From NCBI GenBank assembly GCA_017504405.1, contig JAFVRG010000010.1, forward strand, positions 1,883 to 65,882: a stretch of 64,000 nt of DNA, given 5' to 3'. Position numbers and translations under genes: made by a program. The notes under the pieces were generated by a model that saw only the letters and a program-made list of their open reading frames with translations, made no database searches and was not told the origin of the DNA. This DNA is from Clostridia bacterium (GTDB lineage Bacteria > Bacillota > Clostridia > Oscillospirales > CAG-272). Of the stretch, positions 10,851 through 64,000 are shown piece by piece. The first letter of the stretch is position 1. Each line of letters opens with the position of its first letter.

Positions 10851-11348
10851 GTGAAAAGCATAAACATAGTTCTCCACTGTCCCGAAATTCCGCAGAATAC
10901 GGGAAACATAGCACGCACCTGCGCCGCAACGGGCGCAGCGCTCCACCTGATAAAGCCCTTGGGGTTTGAGATTGACGATAAAAAGATGAAGCGTGCGGGG
11001 CTCGACTATTGGGATAAGCTGGACGTGACAATTTACGAAAACGAGAACGAATTTTTTAAGAAAAATGAGGGCGCAAAAATTTACTATTTTTCAACGAAAG
11101 CGCCAAGAGCGTATACCGAAATAAAATACCCCGATACGGTATTTATAATGTTTGGCAGGGAAACCAAGGGCCTGCCCGAGGAGCTGCTCCAAAAGAACCC
11201 CGACACGACGGTGAGAATACCGATGCGAGAGAGCCTTCGCAGTCTTAATCTCTCAAATTCGGTGGCAATTGCTACCTATGAAATTCTGCGTCAGCGTGAT
11301 TTTGCCGACCTCGTGGCAGAGGGCGAGCCCACCACGTTTAAGTGGTGA
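10851..11348 (+). CDS. trmL: tRNA (cytidine/uridine-2'-O-)-methyltransferase, SpoU/TrmL type
   Basis: GTG start with AAGGGG upstream. IVLHCPEIPQNTGNIARTCAATGAALHLIKPLGF and SLNLSNSVAI are TrmL-like. Confidence 0.85.
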   Translation: MKSINIVLHCPEIPQNTGNIARTCAATGAALHLIKPLGFEIDDKKMKRAGLDYWDKLDVTIYENENEFFKKNEGAKIYYFSTKAPRAYTEIKYPDTVFIMFGRETKGLPEELLQKNPDTTVRIPMRESLRSLNLSNSVAIATYEILRQRDFADLVAEGEPTTFKW

Positions 11349-11360
11349 GGGCGTGCCCTC

Positions 11361-11546
11361 AACTATGATTGCCCTGTCGGACAAGCTATGAGGTACTACG
11401 TACCGTTATGATTGGCTTCGCCAAGTTATGAGTGACTTCGTCACGTTTAAGGTTAGACGGGCAATCATATCATAACGTTCGCAGAGCGAACTCATAACCT
11501 TTGCGTCAGCAAAATCATAACTTTCACGTAAGTGAAATCACAACTC
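11361..11546. repeat. Hairpin array A: unique 5-6 bp mini-hairpins spaced by (G/C)TATGA(T/G), then by the complement TCATAAC
   Basis: TATGA words at 11364, 11387, 11407 and 11427. Hairpins at 11392-11404, 11412-11424 and 11432-11444. TCATA(A/T) words at 11465, 11470, 11492 and 11515. Hairpins at 11477-11491, 11500-11513 and 11522-11537. An 11-bp long-range pair joins 11364-11374 to 11459-11469. Confidence 0.8.
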
Positions 11547-11551
11547 GTAAG

Positions 11552-11583
11552 AAAAAAGCTCCGATTACTCGGAGCTTTTTTTG
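11552..11583. terminator. Bidirectional rho-independent terminator
   Basis: AAAAAAGCTCCG attac TCGGAGCTTTTTTT. It serves convergent trmL (+) and the large-protein/peptide operon (-). Confidence 0.8.
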
Positions 11584-11598
11584 TTTTAGGTTATGGAA

Positions 11599-11736
11599 TT
11601 ATAAATCCCAATTTAACGGGAGTTCCCAAATTCCGACTGTATTATCATTATTTCCTTGACTGTTAATAGACAAGGTGATAAACTCCTCGGATTTAACCTT
11701 TATAACCTCAATTGAGGGCTTGTTATACTTTTTCAT
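11599..11736 (-). CDS. 45-aa peptide (MKKYNKPSIEVIKVKSEEFITLSINSQGNNDNTVGIWELPLNWDL), possible RiPP/signalling-peptide precursor
   Basis: Not in the supplied ORF track because it is under 60 aa. The ATG at 11736 is preceded by AAGGAGGGTAAACAA, 17 nt after the stop of the 1461-aa gene, and is followed by the terminator. Confidence 0.45.
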   Translation of the reverse strand: MKKYNKPSIEVIKVKSEEFITLSINSQGNNDNTVGIWELPLNWDL

Positions 11737-11753
11737 TTGTTTACCCTCCTTAA

Positions 11754-14700
11754 TTATTCCTCATCCTTGAGAGGATGGTTGATTGCCGCATTGTTTACGT
11801 ACTGCGGATATTCGGTCTTGTAGTAGGTGCATATATCAACGAGAGATACTGCTCCGCCGTTTGCCTGATAGTTCTGGCTGATACCGTCATCGTAGAGGTA
11901 GAGATACTCGCCGTCAAGCTCGATTATTACAAAACCACGGAAGAACATAAGCTGTTCCTTCGCAACAACCGTTCCGCCATTGGGAATACGGTTCGTATAG
12001 TCATCGCCGGTTACGTTGCCGTTGCGGTCGATAGAGCCGTTAATGAAATCAACGGTGTATGCAAATACTGTGGTCGTATCCTCACTGTCGGGAAGAACCG
12101 AGAGACGCTCTGCCTCCTCAAAGGACTTGAAGCCGTCATCCTCGTCAGCGATTATATCGGCAACGAAATTTTTACCGTCTGCGTCGATAGCAGTACCGTC
12201 GAAGGTAACGGTGAGGTTCTCAAAGCTGTCGTAGCCGACGAGTGCGCCGTATGCAACAACAGTTGCTTTTCTGAAGGACTCAGCCTTCGTCGTGTCGTAT
12301 GCATATACGCTTCTGATACCGACGTTCTTCGATACACGTGCCTGGAAGCCTATGAACGAGAATATCGAATCTGCGTTACCGAGCACGCCTGCAAGCTTTG
12401 CCTCAACAGCCTCCTTGCTGTCACAGCCGACAGAGCCTATCTGCGAGCCCTTGAACTCATTTACAATGAGCTTCTGCTGGGCTATGCCTGCGTTTCTGTA
12501 CGCCTCGGTGCTGACACCGTAGAAGCGGCAGATGTCAACGAAGTTGTTGATTGCAATTTCCTCGGCCGTAAGGTCGGTGATATAGATACGGAGGTAGGTG
12601 GGAGTCGTGCGGTAGTAGTAGAAGGCTGCGCCGTCCCAACCGCCGCCCTGACCAAGGTTTTCGATTTTAAGCGGCTCGTTATAGGTAGCGGAGCTTTCCC
12701 TCTCATCTACCAGAAGCTCTGCGTTAACGTAGCTGATAATATCGGTGGTGTAGGGATTTACATCGTCAACTATTGCGTCGAAGGTTCCGACGAAGTTGAT
12801 ACCGATGTAGGGGTAATCGGAAGACTTAAGGGTCTTATAGATTACATTCTGGCGGGTTCCGAATACACGGTTAGAACCCGAAAGTCCGATGTTAAGACCT
12901 ACGTTATTCATACTCACATTCATAAAGTTGCTGTATGTACCGGGAATGCTGCCGGGAGCATAGAAGATATACTGTGCGGTATATCCCGTTCCGTTTATGT
13001 TACAGGTATCGGCAGAGTTTGCGCTACCGAGTCCTGTGTTGGTTGCAGTGTTGCGGGTTGAACGCCACTGATAGCAGGGCTGACCTGCGCCCGGGTTAAC
13101 TGCATTCTTTATCTGCGCATCGGTCCAGCGGAATCCCGTATATACCATATAGTTATTGGATACTCCCGCCTTGAAGCTGACGCTGCCGTCCTCTGCATAT
13201 TCAAGGAACGGATGGATATAATCCTCGCTCTGACGCTGCTCATCGGTATATACGTTACCGTAGGTTGTGCCGTACAGCAGTGAGGGAGTGGGCGTGTAGG
13301 GAAGCAGGGTATCGGTTGCGGCCTCCGCAGTTGTCTTGTTAGAGGTATTAGAAGCCGTAAGCACGAACCAATTGCCCTTCGCCGTTCCGTCGGATATACG
13401 GACGTACGCATGGCGTCCGCCGTTATTCGTGAGCTCGAAATACTGATAGCTGCTCTGGCTTGCAAATGCGCCTATCTCAGGCTCAATGTAACGGATATTG
13501 TCGGGAACAGTCGTGGTCGAGCTGTTGTAATAACCAACGGTATTCTCGTTAATAGCGGTGAAGTCAACCTCGGCGTACAAATTCTCACGCTCAACGTAGA
13601 GCTCACGGTAGTTTACGATAAAATCAAGCTCTGAAACGAAGGCGTCAATCTTTTCCTTCATCGCAGTCTTGGTTGCATCGGTTGTGTCGTACATATTGTA
13701 CTCAGAGAAGCCGTTGTAGAAGGTGTCGTCGGCATACTCAAGAATCATTTCGATATCGTATGCGGATACGTCTACTGCGTACTTATAAATAAGGTCTGCA
13801 AAGTAGTTACGAGCCTTCTGCGCATCGGTAAGCTCAACGGAATACATACGGATATTGTCGATATATTTATCAACGGTTGCGATATATCCCGTATTTCTCG
13901 TGTGGTAGGAAAGACCCCTTGCCCTGTTGTTAACCGCAGGAAGGATAGAGGACTGATATGCAGCGCTTCCGTAATGCTTGGAGTAATCCACGTCTTTTTC
14001 GCCAAGTATATCGAATTTAAGCTCAAATTTCCTTACCACGGGGTCAAGAATTCTGCCCTCAAGAGTGAGGTTAAAGGTATGAGGCTCATCGAAGTAATAA
14101 TATTTGGACAGGGTAAGCATAGGGTTGGTGCTGTTAGAGTCCATACCGACGAAATTCGTGCATGCTCTGTTGTCCTTATAGTAAATTCTCGCATTGAACG
14201 TGGTAAAGCCCATCTGTGCCTGACCTGACAGGTCACCGAAGACACCGAGCGCAAAGTTAGCGTTGTAGTTGCTACCCGTTGCGGCAACGTTATTCTGCCA
14301 GAAATCGGAGTATTTATAGTTGGTCTGGAGCGTGAAATAACCGTAGCTGCCGTTTGCATCGGCTGTCGTCGAAAGGTTATCGTCAAGCCACAAGTCAATG
14401 TTACCCATAGTCTGGAGGTTGTTGAAATGTGCCTGAACTCCATCTCTGTCCTTAATCATATCGTAGGTGAAGAGGTTGCCCGTGTAAATACCTGCACCAA
14501 GCGATGTATTCGCCTGATTATCAGTCGTATAGGTTTTCAGATAACCGTCCTCGGTTATCGAAATTCCGCTGGTTGCGGTATCGGTATCGCCGCTCTTGTA
14601 GAAGCTGCCGACGAGGTTGTACTGACCGATATTCTGTCCGCCGAGGATTTTCAGAGCAGAGTGATACGTACCCATACCCGATGCAGAGTTAATGTCAGAG

Positions 14701-16139
14701 TTAACGGAGAGTATATCGTAGACGTCAACGTACTTTGCAAAGTGGCTGGGAACGAGGTCAACAACTGTCGTGCCGTCCTCGTCAAGAGTAACACGCTTCG
14801 TCGTGTAGTATGCCTGATCGAGGGTGGACGCATCTATGTAGGCAATGAGGTTGCCGTCGTCGTACCAGAGGTCCTCATAATAGCCGTAGTGACCCTTGCC
14901 GGGTGCGAAGTAGTAGTCAAGGATAGCCTTAAACTTATCCGCCTCGCCCGAGGTAGCAACGTCGGTGAAGTTGAGGTAGAAGTTCGCAACTCTGCGGGTG
15001 CCGTATGTCATTTGCTCGTTTATTGTGGTCATAACGTCCTTGAGCTCTACTTTAAGGCCTGTGAAGGACGGAGATTTAGCGCCTTCTCCGAACGAGTAGG
15101 GAGCCGTGAAGCCGGCGTACTGCGAGGACATACCTGCATAAAGCTGAGCTGCAAAGAGCGTAGCATCAACGCCTGCTGTTCCGTACTGGCAGAAAACCTC
15201 AGTCATCTTGTCAAGCATATCGTCGCCCGTGTAGCCTGCAAGGGTGAAGCCATTGTTGTACAGATACTCTGCAAACGCTCCCTTTACGTTCTTGCTGTCA
15301 AGGTCAGCGTCCTCGGTTGCGGGATCATCGTCTGCCTTATAGCCGTCAGGGAATCTGCCTGCAATAACGTCTCTTACTGCCTCTCTCTTTGCATCGTCAC
15401 CCTCAACGTCGAGCGATGAACCCGCCAGGATTACGAACAGGCTCGTGTCGGAGTCGTTAAGCAGTCCGAAGATGTAATCGGTAAGACCGTTTACAGACCA
15501 ATCGGCAACGTTTTCAGAGTTGAATTTTGCAGCGAGCTGGTTTCTCAGATTGTTGCTGTTTCCGTCAGCTGCAGTGTAACGTGCGCCTGCGGTGTAGAGG
15601 TCGCTGTAAACGTACGCCATCATAGCACCGAGCCTGTAATTTCCGATAATATATGTGTTGAGGAGCGTGCTGATAATATAGTTTGCTTCCAGAGGAGCAA
15701 GCATAATACGTACGTCACCGTCAACACCGTTAACGAAATAAAGCTCGTTATACAGCGCATCATAGTAGCTCATGAGGTCGCCCTCAACCGTGCCGTCACC
15801 GTTCGGGTCAATTACTGCCTTAATATCAGCAGTCAGTGCCTCGAGGGTGTCGTTGGGATAGCTGGGCTTGAGCGTCAGGGCAATTCTGCCCGCAACGTCA
15901 TCCGAGGTCATAGCCTTGTTTGACGAGAGATAATTCGTCAGCTTGGCATTTATGACGTCTGCCGTGGGAATGGTTGCCTCATCGCCGTATGCGTCGACGA
16001 GTGCGAGGAAGTGTGCCTTATTTGCATCATCGGGGAGTGCATCGTAGCCACCGTCCGCATATGACACAAGTGACATAGCAGGAATCATGCATACGAGCAT
16101 TACTGCGATCAGCACAAGGCTTAAAATTCGCTTTTTCAT
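11754..16139 (-). CDS. Large secreted protein (1461 aa) with at least two LamG/concanavalin-like jelly-roll domains
   Basis: N-terminal signal peptide MKKRILSLVLIAVMLVCMIPAMSLVSYA. Two domain-end motifs typical of LamG-type domains are present (IDNIRMYSVELTDAQKARNYF and YLRIYITDLTAEEIAINNF). No anchor motif was seen. Confidence 0.6.
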   Translation of the reverse strand: MKKRILSLVLIAVMLVCMIPAMSLVSYADGGYDALPDDANKAHFLALVDAYGDEATIPTADVINAKLTNYLSSNKAMTSDDVAGRIALTLKPSYPNDTLEALTADIKAVIDPNGDGTVEGDLMSYYDALYNELYFVNGVDGDVRIMLAPLEANYIISTLLNTYIIGNYRLGAMMAYVYSDLYTAGARYTAADGNSNNLRNQLAAKFNSENVADWSVNGLTDYIFGLLNDSDTSLFVILAGSSLDVEGDDAKREAVRDVIAGRFPDGYKADDDPATEDADLDSKNVKGAFAEYLYNNGFTLAGYTGDDMLDKMTEVFCQYGTAGVDATLFAAQLYAGMSSQYAGFTAPYSFGEGAKSPSFTGLKVELKDVMTTINEQMTYGTRRVANFYLNFTDVATSGEADKFKAILDYYFAPGKGHYGYYEDLWYDDGNLIAYIDASTLDQAYYTTKRVTLDEDGTTVVDLVPSHFAKYVDVYDILSVNSDINSASGMGTYHSALKILGGQNIGQYNLVGSFYKSGDTDTATSGISITEDGYLKTYTTDNQANTSLGAGIYTGNLFTYDMIKDRDGVQAHFNNLQTMGNIDLWLDDNLSTTADANGSYGYFTLQTNYKYSDFWQNNVAATGSNYNANFALGVFGDLSGQAQMGFTTFNARIYYKDNRACTNFVGMDSNSTNPMLTLSKYYYFDEPHTFNLTLEGRILDPVVRKFELKFDILGEKDVDYSKHYGSAAYQSSILPAVNNRARGLSYHTRNTGYIATVDKYIDNIRMYSVELTDAQKARNYFADLIYKYAVDVSAYDIEMILEYADDTFYNGFSEYNMYDTTDATKTAMKEKIDAFVSELDFIVNYRELYVERENLYAEVDFTAINENTVGYYNSSTTTVPDNIRYIEPEIGAFASQSSYQYFELTNNGGRHAYVRISDGTAKGNWFVLTASNTSNKTTAEAATDTLLPYTPTPSLLYGTTYGNVYTDEQRQSEDYIHPFLEYAEDGSVSFKAGVSNNYMVYTGFRWTDAQIKNAVNPGAGQPCYQWRSTRNTATNTGLGSANSADTCNINGTGYTAQYIFYAPGSIPGTYSNFMNVSMNNVGLNIGLSGSNRVFGTRQNVIYKTLKSSDYPYIGINFVGTFDAIVDDVNPYTTDIISYVNAELLVDERESSATYNEPLKIENLGQGGGWDGAAFYYYRTTPTYLRIYITDLTAEEIAINNFVDICRFYGVSTEAYRNAGIAQQKLIVNEFKGSQIGSVGCDSKEAVEAKLAGVLGNADSIFSFIGFQARVSKNVGIRSVYAYDTTKAESFRKATVVAYGALVGYDSFENLTVTFDGTAIDADGKNFVADIIADEDDGFKSFEEAERLSVLPDSEDTTTVFAYTVDFINGSIDRNGNVTGDDYTNRIPNGGTVVAKEQLMFFRGFVIIELDGEYLYLYDDGISQNYQANGGAVSLVDICTYYKTEYPQYVNNAAINHPLKDEE

Positions 16140-16171
16140 AGTATTCTCCTTTTTATAAATTTGTTGATTAT

Positions 16172-16200
16172 ATTATATAACAATGCGTGAATTAATTCAA
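16172..16200 (-). promoter_or_regulatory. Sigma-A type promoter of the 1461-aa protein gene
   Basis: On the minus strand: TTGAAT (16200-16195), a 17-nt spacer, TATAAT (16177-16172). It lies about 30 nt upstream of the AAAAAGGAG RBS and the ATG at 16139. Confidence 0.55.
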
Positions 16201-16248
16201 TTGATATATTAGACAAAATTTCGCACCTTTCGTTTGTGCAACATTAAC

Positions 16249-16272
16249 AAAAAAGTTCCGACTTAGCGTGTT
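16249..16272. repeat. Direct-repeat copy of the left arm of the 16374-16420 terminator
   Basis: AAAAAAGTTCCGACTTAGCGTGTT versus AAAAAACTCCGACTTAGCGTGTT at 16374-16396. They differ by one substitution and one 1-nt indel. The two copies bracket hairpin array B. Confidence 0.8.
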
Positions 16273-16285
16273 GTCTTTTCGGGAA

Positions 16286-16370
16286 TACGTAATGAAATCT
16301 GCCACGGGCAGATGAAATCCACCTATGGTGGATGAAGTCGCTATGCGACGAAATCCTGCTACGCAGGGTA
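16286..16370. repeat. Hairpin array B: four unique 5-bp hairpins spaced by ATGAAAT/ATGAAGT/GAAAT
   Basis: ATGAAAT at 16292 and 16312, ATGAAGT at 16332. Hairpins CTGCC acg GGCAG (16299-16311), CCACC tat GGTGG (16319-16331), GTCGC tat GCGAC (16337-16349) and CCTGC tac GCAGG (16355-16367). Confidence 0.8.
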
Positions 16371-16373
16371 AAG

Positions 16374-16420
16374 AAAAAACTCCGACTTAGCGTGTTACTC
16401 ACGCTAAGTCGGAGTTTTTT
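16374..16420. terminator. Bidirectional rho-independent terminator (15-bp stem)
   Basis: AAAAAA CTCCGACTTAGCGTG ttact CACGCTAAGTCGGAG TTTTTT, immediately after the stop of 16422..17453. Confidence 0.85.
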
Positions 16421-31519: not shown

Positions 31520-31632
31520 GGGGTGTTGGTGGTAACGTCTTAATTTCAGGCTGACAGCACAGGGGCGTGGCGCAGGCACGCTCCCTGCCCGAAGGCTTTA
31601 CCTATTTGATTTTTTGTAAGGAGGAAAATATT

Positions 31633-34218
<2,586 letters not shown>

Positions 34219-34221
34219 AGG

Positions 34222-34430
34222 CAGAAAGGGCGCTTTTTGAAAAAAGCTTCGCAAAAACTTTCGCAGAGAAAAGACGAAAATAGGGCGCTTTTTGAAAAAA
34301 GCTTCGCAAAAACTTTCGCAGAGAAAAGACGAAAATAGGGCGCTTTTTGAAAAAAGCTTCGCATAAACTTTTGCAAAAAAATACGGAAACAGGCCGCTTT
34401 TTGAAAAAAGCTTCGCAAAAACTTCATAAT
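34222..34430 (+). repeat. Four tandem copies (period 55/55/54 bp) of the CGCTTTTTGAAAAAAGCTTCGCAAAAACTTT element
   Basis: Cores begin at 34231, 34286, 34341 and 34395. Copies 1 and 2 are identical over 55 bp. The array lies between the clpB stop (34218) and the terminator. Confidence 0.9.
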
Positions 34431-34476
34431 AAAAAACAGGCAAGGGTGAGGTGCTTTCTGCGCCTTGCCTTTTTGT
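34431..34476 (+). terminator. Rho-independent terminator of clpB
   Basis: AGGCAAGG ... CCTTGCCT stem followed by TTTTT. Confidence 0.6.
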
Positions 34477-63104: not shown

Positions 63105-63455
63105 TTAATTTTCGGCATTACCCTTGACCGTAGTAATAGAAGAAATAAGGATTCTTCTTATTCTACCTGCTATATTGGCAAGCTTTGAAAAGGTAGCTTC
63201 GCTTATAATATCAGTTTTCACAAAAAGATTGAGCCAATATTCCGTTTCGTGGCACTCCTTAAGAGCTATTTGTAATTTTGCGGCAAAATCCGCCTTACTC
63301 TGCGCATAGTTTGCCTCATGCACATTTGCACCGATGCTTGTACCGTTTCTCAGAAGCTGATTTTTCAGCACAAATTTTCCTTTCAAGCTCTCGCAGAGCT
63401 TCACAATCTCCACAGAGAATTCCATTGATAAATCTAACAGTATGTTATCTGACAT
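63105..63455 (-). CDS. Four-helix-bundle protein (23S rRNA intervening-sequence protein / Avd-like family)
   Basis: Start at 63455 (MSDNILLDLSMEFSVEIVKLCESL). QLLRNGTSIGANVHEANYAQSKADFAAKLQIALKECHETEYWL is the family signature as I recall it. Confidence 0.75.
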   Translation of the reverse strand: MSDNILLDLSMEFSVEIVKLCESLKGKFVLKNQLLRNGTSIGANVHEANYAQSKADFAAKLQIALKECHETEYWLNLFVKTDIISEATFSKLANIAGRIRRILISSITTVKGNAEN

Positions 63456-63464
63456 ATTGCCTCT

Positions 63465-63699
63465 GATGAAATGCGGCGGCGCCGCATGAAATGATGCGTT
63501 GCATCTTGAAATGTAGCAGACTACGCCGCTACATGAAATGCACAAGCGTGCATAGAATGAAATTTGCCCTTACTAAAATATGCGCCGCAAAAGCGGCGCA
63601 TTTCATGATATTTTATATCATTTCATTCACTTTAAGTGAATTTCATTTGCACAGCCTGCTGGGCAAATTTCATTGGAAGCGAATCAACGATTCGCTTCC
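63465..63699. repeat. Hairpin array D: five (A/T)TGAAAT-spaced and four ATTTCAT-spaced unique hairpins around a 9-bp central hairpin
   Basis: ATGAAAT at 63466, 63486, 63533 and 63557, and TTGAAAT at 63506. ATTTCAT at 63600, 63620, 63640 and 63667. Hairpins at 63473-85, 63493-505, 63513-32, 63540-51, 63580-601, 63607-19, 63627-39 and 63675-99. A 14-bp long-range pair joins 63556-69 to 63661-74. Confidence 0.85.
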
Positions 63700-63787
63700 T
63701 CTATGGCAACCGCAACCGCAACAGTCATACCAACCATGGGGTTGTTACCTGTTGCTACGGCTTTCATTTATCGTCGTTTGGTATCAT

Positions 63788-63816
63788 CTACAGACATCTC
63801 TGTAGAGCTATTTTTT
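63788..63816 (+). terminator. Possible plus-strand terminator after the structured region
   Basis: CTACAGA catc TCTGTAG, then AGCTA, then TTTTTT. The T-run is displaced 5 nt from the stem. Confidence 0.35.
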
Positions 63817-64000
63817 GTTATTTACCGAATGGTGAAACACGAGGAGCGATTGATTATCATTTCGTGACATTAGGTATCATTTGTGCAGATGTCGGCAAAA
63901 TGTCGGCACGCCGTCAAATTTATCCCCTTAGTCATCATCGTTGTCGGCAAACATACTCTCAAGTATTTTACCACCAATCTCTGACATCTTATCGGTTAAG

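What the first reader, a model, noticed from the sequence alone, without database searches (positions are those of the whole stretch)
11361..11546. Array A: same architecture built on a different spacer word (GTTATGA / TCATAAC) between trmL and the large-protein operon
Four (C/T)TATGA(T/G) words (11364, 11387, 11407, 11427) precede three unique 5-bp hairpins: GGTAC tac GTACC, TTGGC ttc GCCAA and GTGAC ttc GTCAC. TATGATTGCCC (11364-74) pairs perfectly with GGGCAATCATA (11459-69) and encloses them. Then TCATAAC occurs three times (ending at 11476, 11498 and 11520), and TCACAAC once. These words separate three further unique hairpins (11477-91, 11500-13, 11522-37). In addition, GTTATGAG (11425-32) is complementary to CTCATAAC (11491-98), and GTTATGAT (11405-12) to ATCATAAC (11513-20). 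That gives an alternative nested 'ladder' fold, so two mutually exclusive structures are possible. The array sits between a small hairpin at the trmL stop and the bidirectional terminator at 11552-11583.
Basis: seen in the sequence. Interest (0 to 1): 0.75.

Follow-up and report, generated by a model that had tools for sequence, protein, structure and literature searches.

The report
Tag-and-hairpin array at trmL end
The stretch after the trmL-like gene is a real, non-random array of short unique DNA/RNA hairpins separated by one repeated 7-letter word, and it belongs to an apparently undescribed family of such arrays that come and go between closely related gut Clostridia and their phages, probably acting as gene-end barriers.

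Summary
Window 11346-11546 holds eight short perfect hairpins separated by (C/T)TATGA words on the left and TCATAAC words on the right, in front of a bidirectional terminator. It folds far better than shuffles (z -4.5 to -6.6). It is not a one-off. The window has two more arrays (16292-16373, 63466-63700). Close strains carry further ones with the word GTGATAT. Phage contigs carry arrays with GTGATAT, ATGAAAT, ATGATAT or GTGAAAT. The units are oriented: tag, GC-rich stem, then a loop that mostly starts with T. Two-half arrays are two sub-arrays facing each other, and the right-hand word is always the exact complement of the left. Arrays are gained, lost or swapped between strains 96-99% identical in TrmL, and are absent downstream of trmL in 37 related species. 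Yet Array A is about five times more conserved than trmL itself. A homologous ATGAAAT array shows compensatory stem changes across species. The full "ladder" switch fold is not supported. My best reading (confidence about 0.4) is a transcribed gene-end insulator and stabiliser, analogous to REP/BIME. A DNA-level mobile element remains a serious rival. No Rfam, CRISPR or TIGR membership.

The parts
11346..11361 (+). Hairpin H0, TGAGGGC gt GCCCTCA. Its first three bases are the trmL stop codon TGA.
   Evidence: (I15); RNA pairing probability 0.99
11362..11368 (+). Tag 1, ACTATGA
11369..11384 (+). Hairpin TTGCCC tgtc GGaCAA. It has one C-A mismatch here (11381 A) but is perfect (G) in L086, L088, L090 and L523. 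Its 5' arm is also part of the long-range stem 11364-74.
11385..11391 (+). Tag 2, GCTATGA
11392..11404 (+). Hairpin GGTAC tac GTACC
   Evidence: P 0.98
11405..11411 (+). Tag 3, GTTATGA
11412..11424 (+). Hairpin TTGGC ttc GCCAA. It differs from the next unit by two compensatory double changes.
   Evidence: D3, 80% identity; P 0.81
11425..11431 (+). Tag 4, GTTATGA
11432..11444 (+). Hairpin GTGAC ttc GTCAC
   Evidence: P 0.87
11445..11452 (+). Closing word of the left sub-array, GTTTAAGG. Similar words end other sub-arrays: GTTAAGG in L185, GTTAAGC in L014, GTAAAG at 16368, GTTTAGG in L318. CACGTTTAAG here repeats the trmL tail at 11333-42.
   Evidence: (D7)
11453..11469 (.). Centre between the two sub-arrays. 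GGGCAATCATA 11459-69 is the 3' partner of TATGATTGCCC 11364-74 (11-bp long-range stem).
   Evidence: I4; P 0.86 in this allele, 0.001 in the 11381G allele
11470..11476 (-). Tag of the right, inverted sub-array. Reads TCATAAC on the + strand and GTTATGA on the - strand.
11477..11491 (-). Hairpin GTTCGC aga GCGAAC
   Evidence: P 0.97
11492..11498 (-). Tag (TCATAAC on the + strand)
11500..11513 (-). Hairpin TTTGC gtca GCAAA
   Evidence: P 0.91
11515..11521 (-). Tag (TCATAAC on the + strand)
11522..11537 (-). Hairpin TTTCAC gtaa GTGAAA. L086 has C11527T, which still pairs as G-U on the + strand RNA.
11538..11544 (-). Degenerate tag (TCACAAC on the + strand, GTTGTGA on the - strand)
11551..11582 (.). 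Bidirectional intrinsic terminator, an A-run, a 13-14-bp stem and a T-run. It stays with Array A in L086 although the downstream genes there are different.
   Evidence: (I3)
16292..16373 (+). Second family member in the window: a one-sided array with tag ATGAAAT and four hairpins, ending in GTAAAG, followed by the terminator at 16374-16420. It is bracketed by a 28-nt direct repeat (16245-72 / 16369-96). It is homologous to arrays in L085, L014 and L318.
63466..63700 (.). Third family member (Array B): ATGAAAT tags on the left, ATTTCAT on the right, unique hairpins, and a 14-bp closing stem AATGAAATTTGCCC / GGGCAAATTTCATT. It lies upstream of a PF05635 gene on the minus strand.

Best explanation
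Array A is one copy of a family of modular, non-coding 'tag-and-hairpin' arrays. The unit has a direction. It consists of a 7-nt A/T-rich tag with a TGA core (here CTATGA or GTTATGA; elsewhere ATGAAAT, GTGATAT, ATGATAT or GTGAAAT). The tag is followed by a perfect 5-7-bp GC-rich hairpin whose 3-4-nt loop usually starts with T. In Array A, four to five units point rightwards, starting at the trmL stop codon. Three to four units point leftwards. The two sub-arrays face each other, and a bidirectional intrinsic terminator follows.

Most likely mechanism (inferred, not shown). The array is transcribed as the whole 3' untranslated region of trmL and works as a gene-end insulator and stabiliser. From either direction, the TGA in successive tags closes all three reading frames within about 60 nt. 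The independently folding hairpins are separated by only 7 unpaired bases, which gives a multi-layer barrier to 3' exonucleases and to read-through ahead of the terminator. The conserved tags are probably read by a factor, either a processing endonuclease or an RNA-binding protein. This is what REP/BIME elements do in E. coli.

Shown. The module is not fixed to trmL. Whole arrays are gained, lost, duplicated and swapped between close strains and phages by recombination.
For: The structure is real: z -4.5 to -6.6 and local hairpin probabilities 0.81-0.99.

It is a family. Three arrays lie in the window. Close strains carry two GTGATAT arrays. L014 has another. Thirteen phage or viral-contig loci carry the same kind of tags. 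The composition-matched control word GATTGAT gave 0 of 120 loci.

Units are oriented. In 69 inter-tag segments the first loop base is T in 45 and the last is A in only 5. Right halves match left halves only after reverse complementation.

There is constraint. Array A differs by 0.5-1.0% between strains whose trmL differs by 2.2-6.7% and whose downstream genes differ by 6-22%.

Hairpins are kept across species. The window's ATGAAAT array is homologous to arrays in L014 and L318. On that alignment 95.5% of cells are paired, against 29-49% in slid controls. Four of 18 pairs carry compensatory double changes.

Position and orientation fit an RNA or translation role. The stop codon of a long upstream ORF lies in, or within 4 nt of, the first tag, with tags in mRNA sense, in six cases: Array A, the T array of L088, L176 (after the major head protein gene), L168 (after a holin gene), L185 and L680b. 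L104 starts 27 nt after a portal gene. Only the S array is antisense.

Strong intrinsic terminators directly follow arrays at 11551, 16374 and in L178, L298, L318, L533 and L580.

TGA start positions in Array A are 11346, 11366, 11389, 11409 and 11429 on the + strand, and 11540, 11517, 11494 and 11472 on the - strand. They cover all three frames in both directions (read).

REP elements are reported as dual terminator-stabilisers whose locations vary between strains (bioRxiv 10.64898/2026.03.23.713779; PMC3733652).
Against: There are no expression data, so transcription, processing and any effect on mRNA are inferred.

The stems are almost purely Watson-Crick: 362 W-C pairs, 4 G-T and 18 mismatches. 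The cross-species changes are all double, with no G-U intermediates. This does not favour an RNA-level constraint over a DNA-level one.

The S array (L085/L086) is antisense to the secA operon. The 16292 array is antisense to both flanking genes in this window.

A purely structural barrier explains neither why tags are conserved across genomes of 40-62% G+C, nor why the right-hand tag is always the exact complement of the left-hand one.

Nearest-neighbour energies do not explain the loop polarity.

Thirty-seven related species manage without any array after trmL.
Confidence: 0.4

Rival explanations
1. The array is a DNA-level selfish or mobile element. The tag plus an adjacent single-stranded DNA hairpin would be the recognition unit of a trans-acting enzyme, for example a HUH/Y1 REP-associated-type transposase or another ssDNA nuclease or integrase. 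Arrays would spread and grow because of that enzyme, and any RNA effect would be secondary.
For: Arrays are present or absent between strains 96-99% identical in TrmL. An array of about 139 bp sits between secA and the next gene in L085/L086 and is absent in the window. The T array is inserted into the trmL tail in L088.

Homologous arrays occur at different loci, in other species and in phages: window 16292 with L014 and L318, and S/T with L176.

Stems are almost only Watson-Crick, with no G-U enrichment among the imperfect positions (4 of 22).

Unit polarity is strict. On the anti-tag strand the loops read GNA/ANA closed by C-G. From my own knowledge this matches the unusually stable d(C-GNA-G) DNA mini-hairpins.

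REPs are likewise a short unpaired tag plus a palindrome, often in inverted pairs (PMC3733652).
Against: The S-array insertion shows no target duplication or terminal inverted repeats.

The flanking direct repeats that do exist are explained by recombination between alleles. These are 16 nt in L088, 28 nt at 16245/16369 and 10 nt at 11333/11442. The L088 junction uses GCCGAC microhomology with the trmL tail.

A recognition enzyme would be expected to need a conserved hairpin, yet the stems are all different.

No transposase, reverse transcriptase, Cas or Nop-domain gene is among the 46 ORFs scanned in the window.

Array A is more conserved than its flanks, which is unusual for junk DNA.
Confidence: 0.25
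2. The array is a multivalent RNA scaffold or sponge. The single-stranded RUGAWAU tags, held in register between hairpins, would bind several copies of one RNA-binding protein (or an sRNA). In two-half arrays, tag-to-anti-tag pairing would close the domain into a compact multi-branched fold.
For: Tags are conserved while stems drift. Four related tags (GTGATAT, ATGAAAT, ATGATAT, GTGAAAT) give arrays in unrelated contigs, and a scrambled control gives none. The anti-tag is the exact complement of the tag in 9 of 9 two-half arrays. Every two-half array has a 10-16-bp long-range closing helix in its minimum-energy fold. The 7-nt spacing brings neighbouring tags side by side at the hairpin bases (inference).
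Against: At least three tag types coexist in one species (GTTATGA, ATGAAAT, GTGATAT), which is awkward for a single binding protein. One-sided arrays lack anti-tags. The closing helix of Array A vanishes in the common 11381G allele. Tag-plus-hairpin single units are not enriched elsewhere in the window. No candidate protein is known.
Confidence: 0.15
3. The array is a neutral by-product. Tandem slippage of a stop-codon-proximal 'word plus quasi-palindrome', followed by replication template-switching, would keep short inverted repeats perfect. There would be no function; the arrays are merely tolerated at gene ends.
For: Turnover is fast and arrays are absent in 37 related species. Stems are Watson-Crick only, with double changes and no G-U steps. 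Adjacent units are 80% identical (D3). Sense-oriented tags carry TGA, so insertions into ORF ends are tolerated mainly in that orientation. That alone could create the orientation bias (inference).
Against: Array A is about five times less diverged than trmL, loops and centre included. The same tags recur in genomes of 40-62% G+C. Homologous arrays persist between species and in phages. Loop polarity is consistent. Arrays sit non-randomly after highly expressed phage genes and before terminators.
Confidence: 0.12
4. One reading: a two-state RNA (or DNA) switch that toggles between 'beads on a string plus an enclosing stem' and a nested ladder of word/anti-word helices.
For: There are perfect 9-nt complementarities at 11405-13/11513-21 and 11425-33/11490-98. 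The minus-strand minimum-energy fold uses one ladder helix at P 0.64. Tag and anti-tag are complementary in all two-half arrays.
Against: On the trmL-sense strand the ladder helices have P of 0.03 or less. The forced ladder is about 20 kcal/mol worse. Adding the ladder to the local hairpins is destabilising (-36.6 against -39.9). Identical words in every rung would favour mis-register rather than a defined switch. One-sided arrays cannot form it. No ligand-binding or conserved junction is visible, and there is no Rfam match.
Confidence: 0.05
5. The array is a guide-RNA array of a CRISPR-like or TIGR-like defence system.
For: Constant short repeats alternate with unique segments. The literature describes TIGR 'stem-loop arrays' with variable palindromes (PMC12045711).
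Against: The unique segments are self-complementary 13-16-mers with 3-4-nt loops and have no room for spacers. There is no box C / box D pattern and no 14-nt guide intervals. There are no cas or tas genes among the 46 ORFs scanned. The arrays are dispersed at ordinary gene ends.
Confidence: 0.01

Closest known systems
REP / BIME / REPIN elements (repetitive extragenic palindromes of Proteobacteria)
   Same: Both are extragenic hairpin-forming units made of a short unpaired tag plus a palindrome. Both cluster, with neighbours in inverted orientation. Both lie mostly just downstream of ORFs, between tandem or convergent genes. Their locations differ between strains. REPs are reported to act as combined partial terminators and mRNA stabilisers.
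   Different: In REPs the palindrome itself (20-40 nt) is the conserved family sequence and the tag is GTAG or CGTC. Here the logic is reversed: the 13-16-nt palindromes are all different and only the 7-nt tag (RTGAWAT or GTTATGA) is constant. Up to five units stand in the same orientation within each half. The hosts are Clostridia and their phages. No RAYT gene has been seen.
CRISPR arrays
   Same: A constant repeat alternates with unique segments at a regular period, and content varies between strains.
   Different: The repeat is only 7 nt. The unique segments are perfect hairpins and cannot act as guides. The two halves are inverted. There are no cas genes. Arrays are dispersed at gene ends.
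TIGR stem-loop arrays (TIGR-Tas systems)
   Same: Both are tandem units delimited by palindromes of variable sequence with little conservation. Both are found in phages and gut metagenomes.
   Different: TIGR units carry two 8-12-nt spacers flanked by box C / box D motifs inside a large loop and lie next to a Nop-domain tas gene. Here the loops are 3-4 nt, the linker is constant, and there is no tas gene.
Hairpin clusters downstream of stop codons proposed as intrinsic termination units (Gupta & Pal 2021, PMC8355165)
   Same: Several hairpins lie less than 15 nt apart, starting at the stop codon.
   Different: Those clusters mostly hold two hairpins with no repeated linker word. They are not a homologous or exchangeable family. 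Here a canonical terminator follows the array anyway.
Tandem heptamer repeats such as TAACTGA in Beggiatoaceae and Cyanobacteria (PMC4679880)
   Same: Intergenic heptamers containing TGA are repeated in an oriented way and seem to have been spread horizontally, by an unknown mechanism.
   Different: Those heptamers are directly adjacent, with no hairpins between them, and mostly lie just upstream of start codons.

Membership tests
REP/BIME/REPIN | Many copies per genome share one conserved palindromic consensus (20-40 nt) | tested here: not met
   All 20 hairpins tested are unique in the 64-kb window. The 69 inter-tag segments have different stems.
REP/BIME/REPIN | An unpaired GTAG or CGTC tag at one end of the palindrome | tested here: not met
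   The tags are ACTATGA, GCTATGA, GTTATGA, ATGAAAT and GTGATAT. The definition is from PMC3733652.
REP/BIME/REPIN | Extragenic, mainly downstream of ORFs between tandem or convergent genes; location varies between strains | tested here: met
   Array A lies between the convergent trmL and peptide genes. Presence or absence differs in L085, L086 and L088.
REP/BIME/REPIN | Units paired in inverted orientation (REPIN doublets, BIME alternation) | tested here: inconclusive
   Whole sub-arrays are inverted relative to each other, but units within a sub-array are direct.
REP/BIME/REPIN | A cognate RAYT (Y1 transposase) gene in the genome | not testable with these tools
   Only 64 kb of the genome is held. 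None is present among the 46 ORFs scanned.
CRISPR array | Direct repeats of about 23-50 nt separated by non-self-complementary spacers of similar length | tested here: not met
   The repeat is 7 nt and the 'spacers' are 13-16-nt perfect hairpins.
CRISPR array | Adjacent cas genes | tested here: not met
   Pfam scans of 46 window ORFs show only housekeeping families.
TIGR-Tas (stem-loop array type) | [quoted passage not shown] | tested here: not met
   The loops are 3-4 nt and the inter-hairpin linker is the constant tag.
TIGR-Tas (stem-loop array type) | A neighbouring Tas protein with a Nop domain | tested here: not met
   No Nop or IS110-like domain was found in the window ORFs.
Any Rfam 15 RNA family | A covariance-model score at or above the gathering threshold | tested here: not met
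   There are 0 hits in the whole window. Around the array there are only sub-threshold terminator-like hits, at most 26.6 bits against gathering scores of 40 or more.
Hairpin-cluster intrinsic termination unit | At least two hairpins less than 15 nt apart, beginning 80 nt or less after the stop codon | tested here: met
   H0 begins at the stop codon and the next hairpins follow at 7-nt gaps. Termination activity itself was not testable.
tRNA / tmRNA-like element | A cloverleaf recognised by ARAGORN | tested here: not met
   No tRNA or tmRNA was found in the window or in L178, L298, L314 and L318.

The most novel reading that the evidence does not exclude
Tag-and-hairpin arrays may be a distinct, previously unnamed class of prokaryotic element served by its own machinery. 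The RTGAWAT tag next to any short hairpin would be the recognition unit of an unidentified factor acting on single-stranded DNA or RNA. That factor would add, copy or process units. This would explain the strict unit polarity, the word that stays uniform within an array and complementary between its two halves, the uniqueness of the stems, and the spread between Clostridia chromosomes and phage late operons.
Probability: 0.25. Interest if true: 0.85.

Novelty: new variant of a known kind. Interest (0 to 1): 0.62.

Why it matters
If the family is what it appears to be, uncultured gut Clostridia and their phages carry a dispersed, exchangeable non-coding module whose design is the reverse of REP elements: the tag is constant and the palindromes are free. 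It sits exactly where expression of neighbouring genes is decided, at stop codons, between cistrons, after phage major head and portal genes, and at the borders of variable islands. That would give a new handle on strain-level regulatory diversity in the microbiome. It would also be a natural example of non-repetitive multi-hairpin insulators of the kind synthetic biologists design. Finally, it is a concrete test case for telling RNA-level selection apart from DNA-level palindrome maintenance. The arrays also break short-read assemblies and may mislead repeat or CRISPR-like finders.

Tried and rejected
Rfam: the gathering-threshold scan of the whole window gave no hit, and the E-value scan of 11250-11700 gave only weak terminator-like matches.

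tRNA/tmRNA search: none.

TIGR and CRISPR readings were rejected on their defining features.

Integron attC (R''/R' = RYYYAAC/GTTRRRY, from my own knowledge): GTTATGA...TCATAAC is in the wrong order, does not fit the consensus, and other arrays use other words.

Chain of mini-ORFs through ATGA overlaps: this holds in Array A's left half (spacings 23, 20, 20). Other arrays have spacings of 21 and 22 and no Shine-Dalgarno sequences, so it is not general.

Promoter arrays: there is only one 9-of-12 match on the minus strand.

Hairpins copied from elsewhere, in the manner of spacers: there are no second copies in the window.

Transposon-like target duplications: flanking direct repeats occur at only 3 of 12 arrays, and recombination between alleles explains them.

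Strand-specific hairpin stability: nearest-neighbour RNA and DNA energies are the same on both strands.

Replication orientation from GC skew: uninformative.

GTTATGA-type arrays in viral contigs: 15 pattern hits, none with hairpins.

Metagenome scan with SecA: it returned only distant relatives (61% identity or less) and no arrays, so it served only as a negative control.

Exact-protein look-up for the PF05635 gene next to Array B: not on record. Look-ups for the 343-aa neighbour gave only identical strains.

Literature searches for hairpin arrays, tandem hairpins, or REPs in Clostridia found no description of this architecture.
Full report
**Observation.**
- The stop codon TGA (11346-48) is the first three bases of a hairpin, TGAGGGC gt GCCCTCA.
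- Four tags follow: ACTATGA, GCTATGA, GTTATGA, GTTATGA. Each tag is followed by a short hairpin.
- Next come the word GTTTAAGG and a 17-nt centre.
- Then there are three hairpins, each preceded by TCATAAC; the last is followed by a degenerate TCACAAC.
- A 13-14-bp A-run/T-run terminator lies at 11551-11582.

There are two corrections.
- The third TCATAAC ends at 11521, not 11520.
It is perfect in all other strains, which have G at 11381.

The array is not a chance product.
- Fold z-scores are -4.5 to -5.4 for the array alone and -6.1 and -6.6 with the terminator.
- A word-agnostic detector finds such arrays only in this family. It found none with a 7-nt word in 1.1 Mb of unrelated bacterial loci, and only family members in 3.5 Mb of other loci.

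**A family, not a single locus.**
- The window has two more arrays. One is a one-sided ATGAAAT array at 16292-16373, in front of another terminator. The other is a two-half ATGAAAT/ATTTCAT array at 63466-63700.
- No further arrays were found in the other long intergenic regions.
- The organism is an uncultured gut Clostridia/Eubacteriales lineage. The best species-level TrmL match is 85%.
- In 37 related species the DNA after trmL has no array and no synteny.

Strains 94-100% identical in TrmL tell a different story.
- L081-L084, L086, L090 and L523 keep Array A.
- L088 has an extra GTGATAT array (the T array) inserted into the trmL tail, in front of Array A.
- L085 has trmL, then the T array, then directly the ATGAAAT array that lies at 16292 in the window. 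Array A and the whole peptide/1461-aa operon (about 11349-16290) are therefore missing in L085.
- L086 keeps Array A and its terminator but has unrelated DNA downstream.
- L085 and L086 also carry a GTGATAT array of about 139 bp and six hairpins (the S array) between secA and the next gene. The window has only 26 nt there.
- Same-strain contigs are identical.

**Anatomy of the unit.**
I defined segments only by the tags and examined 69 inter-tag segments from 20 arrays.
- They contain 362 Watson-Crick pairs, 4 G-T pairs and 18 mismatches.
- The loop starts with T in 45 of 69 segments and ends with A in only 5 of 69.
- Right-hand halves fit this rule only after reverse complementation.

The unit is therefore oriented: tag, stem, T-first loop, stem. 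A two-half array is two sub-arrays facing each other. All nine two-half arrays seen have the same polarity, with the tag-bearing units at the 5' end on either strand. These are A, B, L014, L178, L298, L318, L580 and two in L314. In all nine, the right-hand word is the exact complement of the left-hand word.

Other features of the unit:
- Sub-arrays tend to end with a GTTTAAGG-like word.
- Mean hairpin stability is about -6.3 kcal/mol as RNA and -4.4 as DNA, and is the same on both strands in nearest-neighbour models.
- The hairpins have no other copies in the window.
- Single tag-plus-hairpin units are not enriched outside arrays.

**Distribution and tags.**
Scans of IMG/VR for three tags at 12-16-nt spacing mostly gave ordinary tandem repeats. 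Each of four related tags also gave genuine arrays with different GC-rich hairpins.
- GTGATAT: L104, L168, L176, L178, L185.
- ATGAAAT: L298, L314, L318.
- ATGATAT: L533/L581, L580.
- GTGAAAT: L680, L724.
- The composition-matched control GATTGAT gave none in 120 loci.
- These contigs range from 40 to 62% G+C and share no other similarity with the window.
- A GTTATGA-type search found no further member, and Array A has no homologue outside its own species in the held data.

In phages the arrays lie in mRNA sense. L176 is directly after the major head protein gene. L104 is between a P22-like portal gene and a Prp peptidase gene. L168 is after a holin gene. In at least six arrays the stop codon of the upstream ORF lies in, or within 4 nt of, the first tag. 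Only the S array is antisense to its operon.

**Constraint and evolution.**
- Array A differs by 1-2 bases in 198 (0.5-1.0%) between strains whose trmL differs by 2.2-6.7% and whose downstream genes differ by 6-22%.
- The three variable sites are a stem position that is perfect in all strains but this one, a C-to-T change that remains a G-U pair on the sense RNA, and an unpaired centre base.
- The window's ATGAAAT array is homologous to an array upstream of trmL in another species (L014, 81.7% over 60 nt). L014 is in turn homologous to an array in a viral contig (L318).
- On their alignment, 95.5% of cells are paired against 29-49% in slid controls. Four of 18 pairs show compensatory double changes and none shows a one-sided change.
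- Neighbouring units inside Array A also differ by compensatory doubles (D3).
- The S and T arrays are paralogous. They share stems in a different order and with different loops, and they share the hairpin TCGCCtgcGGCGA with phage contig L176.
- Direct repeats of local sequence bracket some modules: 10 nt at 11333/11442, 28 nt at 16245/16369, and 16 nt in L088.
- L522 shows that the L088 junction is a recombination joint between two trmL alleles using GCCGAC microhomology. These repeats therefore point to recombination, not transposition.
- No target duplication or inverted termini flank the S array.

**Fold.**
- On the trmL-sense RNA the local hairpins are robust (P 0.81-0.99).
- The 11-bp enclosing stem has P 0.86 in this allele but 0.001 in the common 11381G allele.
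- The ladder helices have P of 0.03 or less, and forcing them costs about 20 kcal/mol. Only the minus strand uses one of them, at P 0.64.
- Every two-half array does have one 10-16-bp long-range closing helix in its minimum-energy fold. This fits the universal tag/anti-tag complementarity.
- About half of the family is one-sided.
- I conclude that the beads-on-a-string hairpins are the general feature. A closing helix is plausible in two-half arrays. The two-state ladder switch is not supported.

**What it most likely does.**
The shown facts are position, orientation and constraint. The arrays sit at stop codons, between cistrons, before strong terminators, after highly expressed phage genes and at the borders of a variable island. 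They have a sense bias. TGA in the tags covers all three frames from both directions in Array A. Hairpins are conserved while stem sequence drifts. Array A is under purifying constraint.

From these I infer a transcribed gene-end insulator and stabiliser.
- The hairpins, only 7 nt apart, would block 3' exonucleases and slow or stop read-through.
- The tags would stop stray translation and probably serve as sites for a processing nuclease or a binding protein.

This is functionally what REP/BIME elements are reported to do. I put this at about 0.4.

The main rival, at about 0.25, is a DNA-level element whose tag-plus-ssDNA-hairpin unit is handled by an unknown enzyme. In its favour are the almost purely Watson-Crick stems, the absence of G-U intermediates, the strict loop polarity (GNA-type loops on the anti-tag strand), and the mobility between loci, species and phages. 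Against it are the lack of insertion signatures, the lack of any conserved hairpin, and the absence of a candidate gene among 46 ordinary housekeeping ORFs.

A multivalent RNA scaffold (0.15), a neutral by-product of slippage plus palindrome correction (0.12), the ladder switch (0.05) and guide-RNA arrays (0.01) follow.

**Comparison with known systems.**
- There is no Rfam family and no tRNA-like gene.
- CRISPR and TIGR membership fail on their defining features.
- REP/BIME is the closest kind. The conserved palindrome and the GTAG/CGTC tag that define REPs are absent, and the logic is inverted: the tag is constant and the palindromes are free.
- Full-text searches found no description of this architecture.
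- I therefore file it as a new variant of the known kind 'extragenic hairpin repeat'. There is a real chance (about 0.25) that it is a class of its own with dedicated machinery.

Noticed in passing
window 11349-16290: The whole block of Array A, terminator, 45-aa peptide gene (11599-11736, -), 1461-aa secreted-looking protein with no Pfam domain (11754-16139, -) and its promoter region is a variable island. It is absent in L085, where the T array abuts the ATGAAAT array. It is replaced downstream of the terminator in L086, and is only 78-90% identical in L088 and L090. Tag-and-hairpin arrays sit at both borders.
   Followed up: partly
window 16245-16272 and 16369-16396: A 28-nt direct repeat (86% identity; 16 nt exact) brackets the ATGAAAT array. 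It consists of the A-run and left arm of the terminator at 16374-16420. The upstream copy lacks the right arm.
   Followed up: partly
window 34220-34440: There are about four tandem copies of a 58-bp unit (agggcgctttttgaaaaaagcttcgcaaaaactttcgcagagaaaagacgaaaat) right after the ClpB-like gene (31567-34218). The units are near-identical, unlike the arrays. Each contains an A/T-rich inverted repeat.
   Followed up: no
window 63105-63458 (-) and 63700-64000: A PF05635 '23S rRNA intervening-sequence protein' (four-helix-bundle, Avd-like) gene lies immediately downstream of Array B on the minus strand. The sequence beyond the array (63700-63760) is rich in AAC repeats (ggcaaccgcaaccgcaac). The exact protein is not on record in the assembly collection.
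   Followed up: partly
L168 10053-11559 (-): The phage contig with a GTGATAT array after its holin gene also carries a reverse transcriptase (RVT_1) next to a CBM_5_12 protein. This looks like a diversity-generating retroelement two genes away from the array.
   Followed up: no
L298 ~480-520, L318 ~770-800, L580 ~1075-1110: In three viral contigs a two-half array plus terminator is followed by a sequence that looks like the 3' end of a tRNA on the other strand (TGGTGGAGC...GGATTCGAACC). ARAGORN finds no complete tRNA in L298 or L318 (L580 was not scanned). It may be an att-site remnant at a prophage end. The three loci look orthologous but use different tags (ATGAAAT against ATGATAT).
   Followed up: partly
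L314 (-) ~2150-2456: Two arrays with different tags stand side by side (ATGATAT/ATGATG with CATCAT, then ATGAAAT/GTGAAAT with ATTTCAT). One locus can therefore stack modules of different words, as in L085 and L088.
   Followed up: no
L680 1500-1600 and 4290-4360: Two GTGAAAT arrays in one 4.5-kb contig are each preceded by the same roughly 20-nt sequence (tgctcgc.gtgctcgcGTGAAAT) and followed by a shared downstream block. This suggests that a larger repeated module includes the array.
   Followed up: no
L082 and L083 contig ends; L087: Short-read (Logan) contigs of this strain stop inside the terminator or the array. The arrays are therefore assembly break points and may be under-represented in MAGs.
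   Followed up: no
window 1-64000: The window is ordinary chromosome. It carries IMPDH, SecA, TrmL, DapA, QueA, RuvX, an HtrA-like protease, LigA, ClpB, Dxs, UxuA, Tgt, MutL, MutS, a MiaB-like protein and ApbE. No mobile-element, cas, tas or reverse-transcriptase genes were found in the 46 ORFs scanned.
   Followed up: yes
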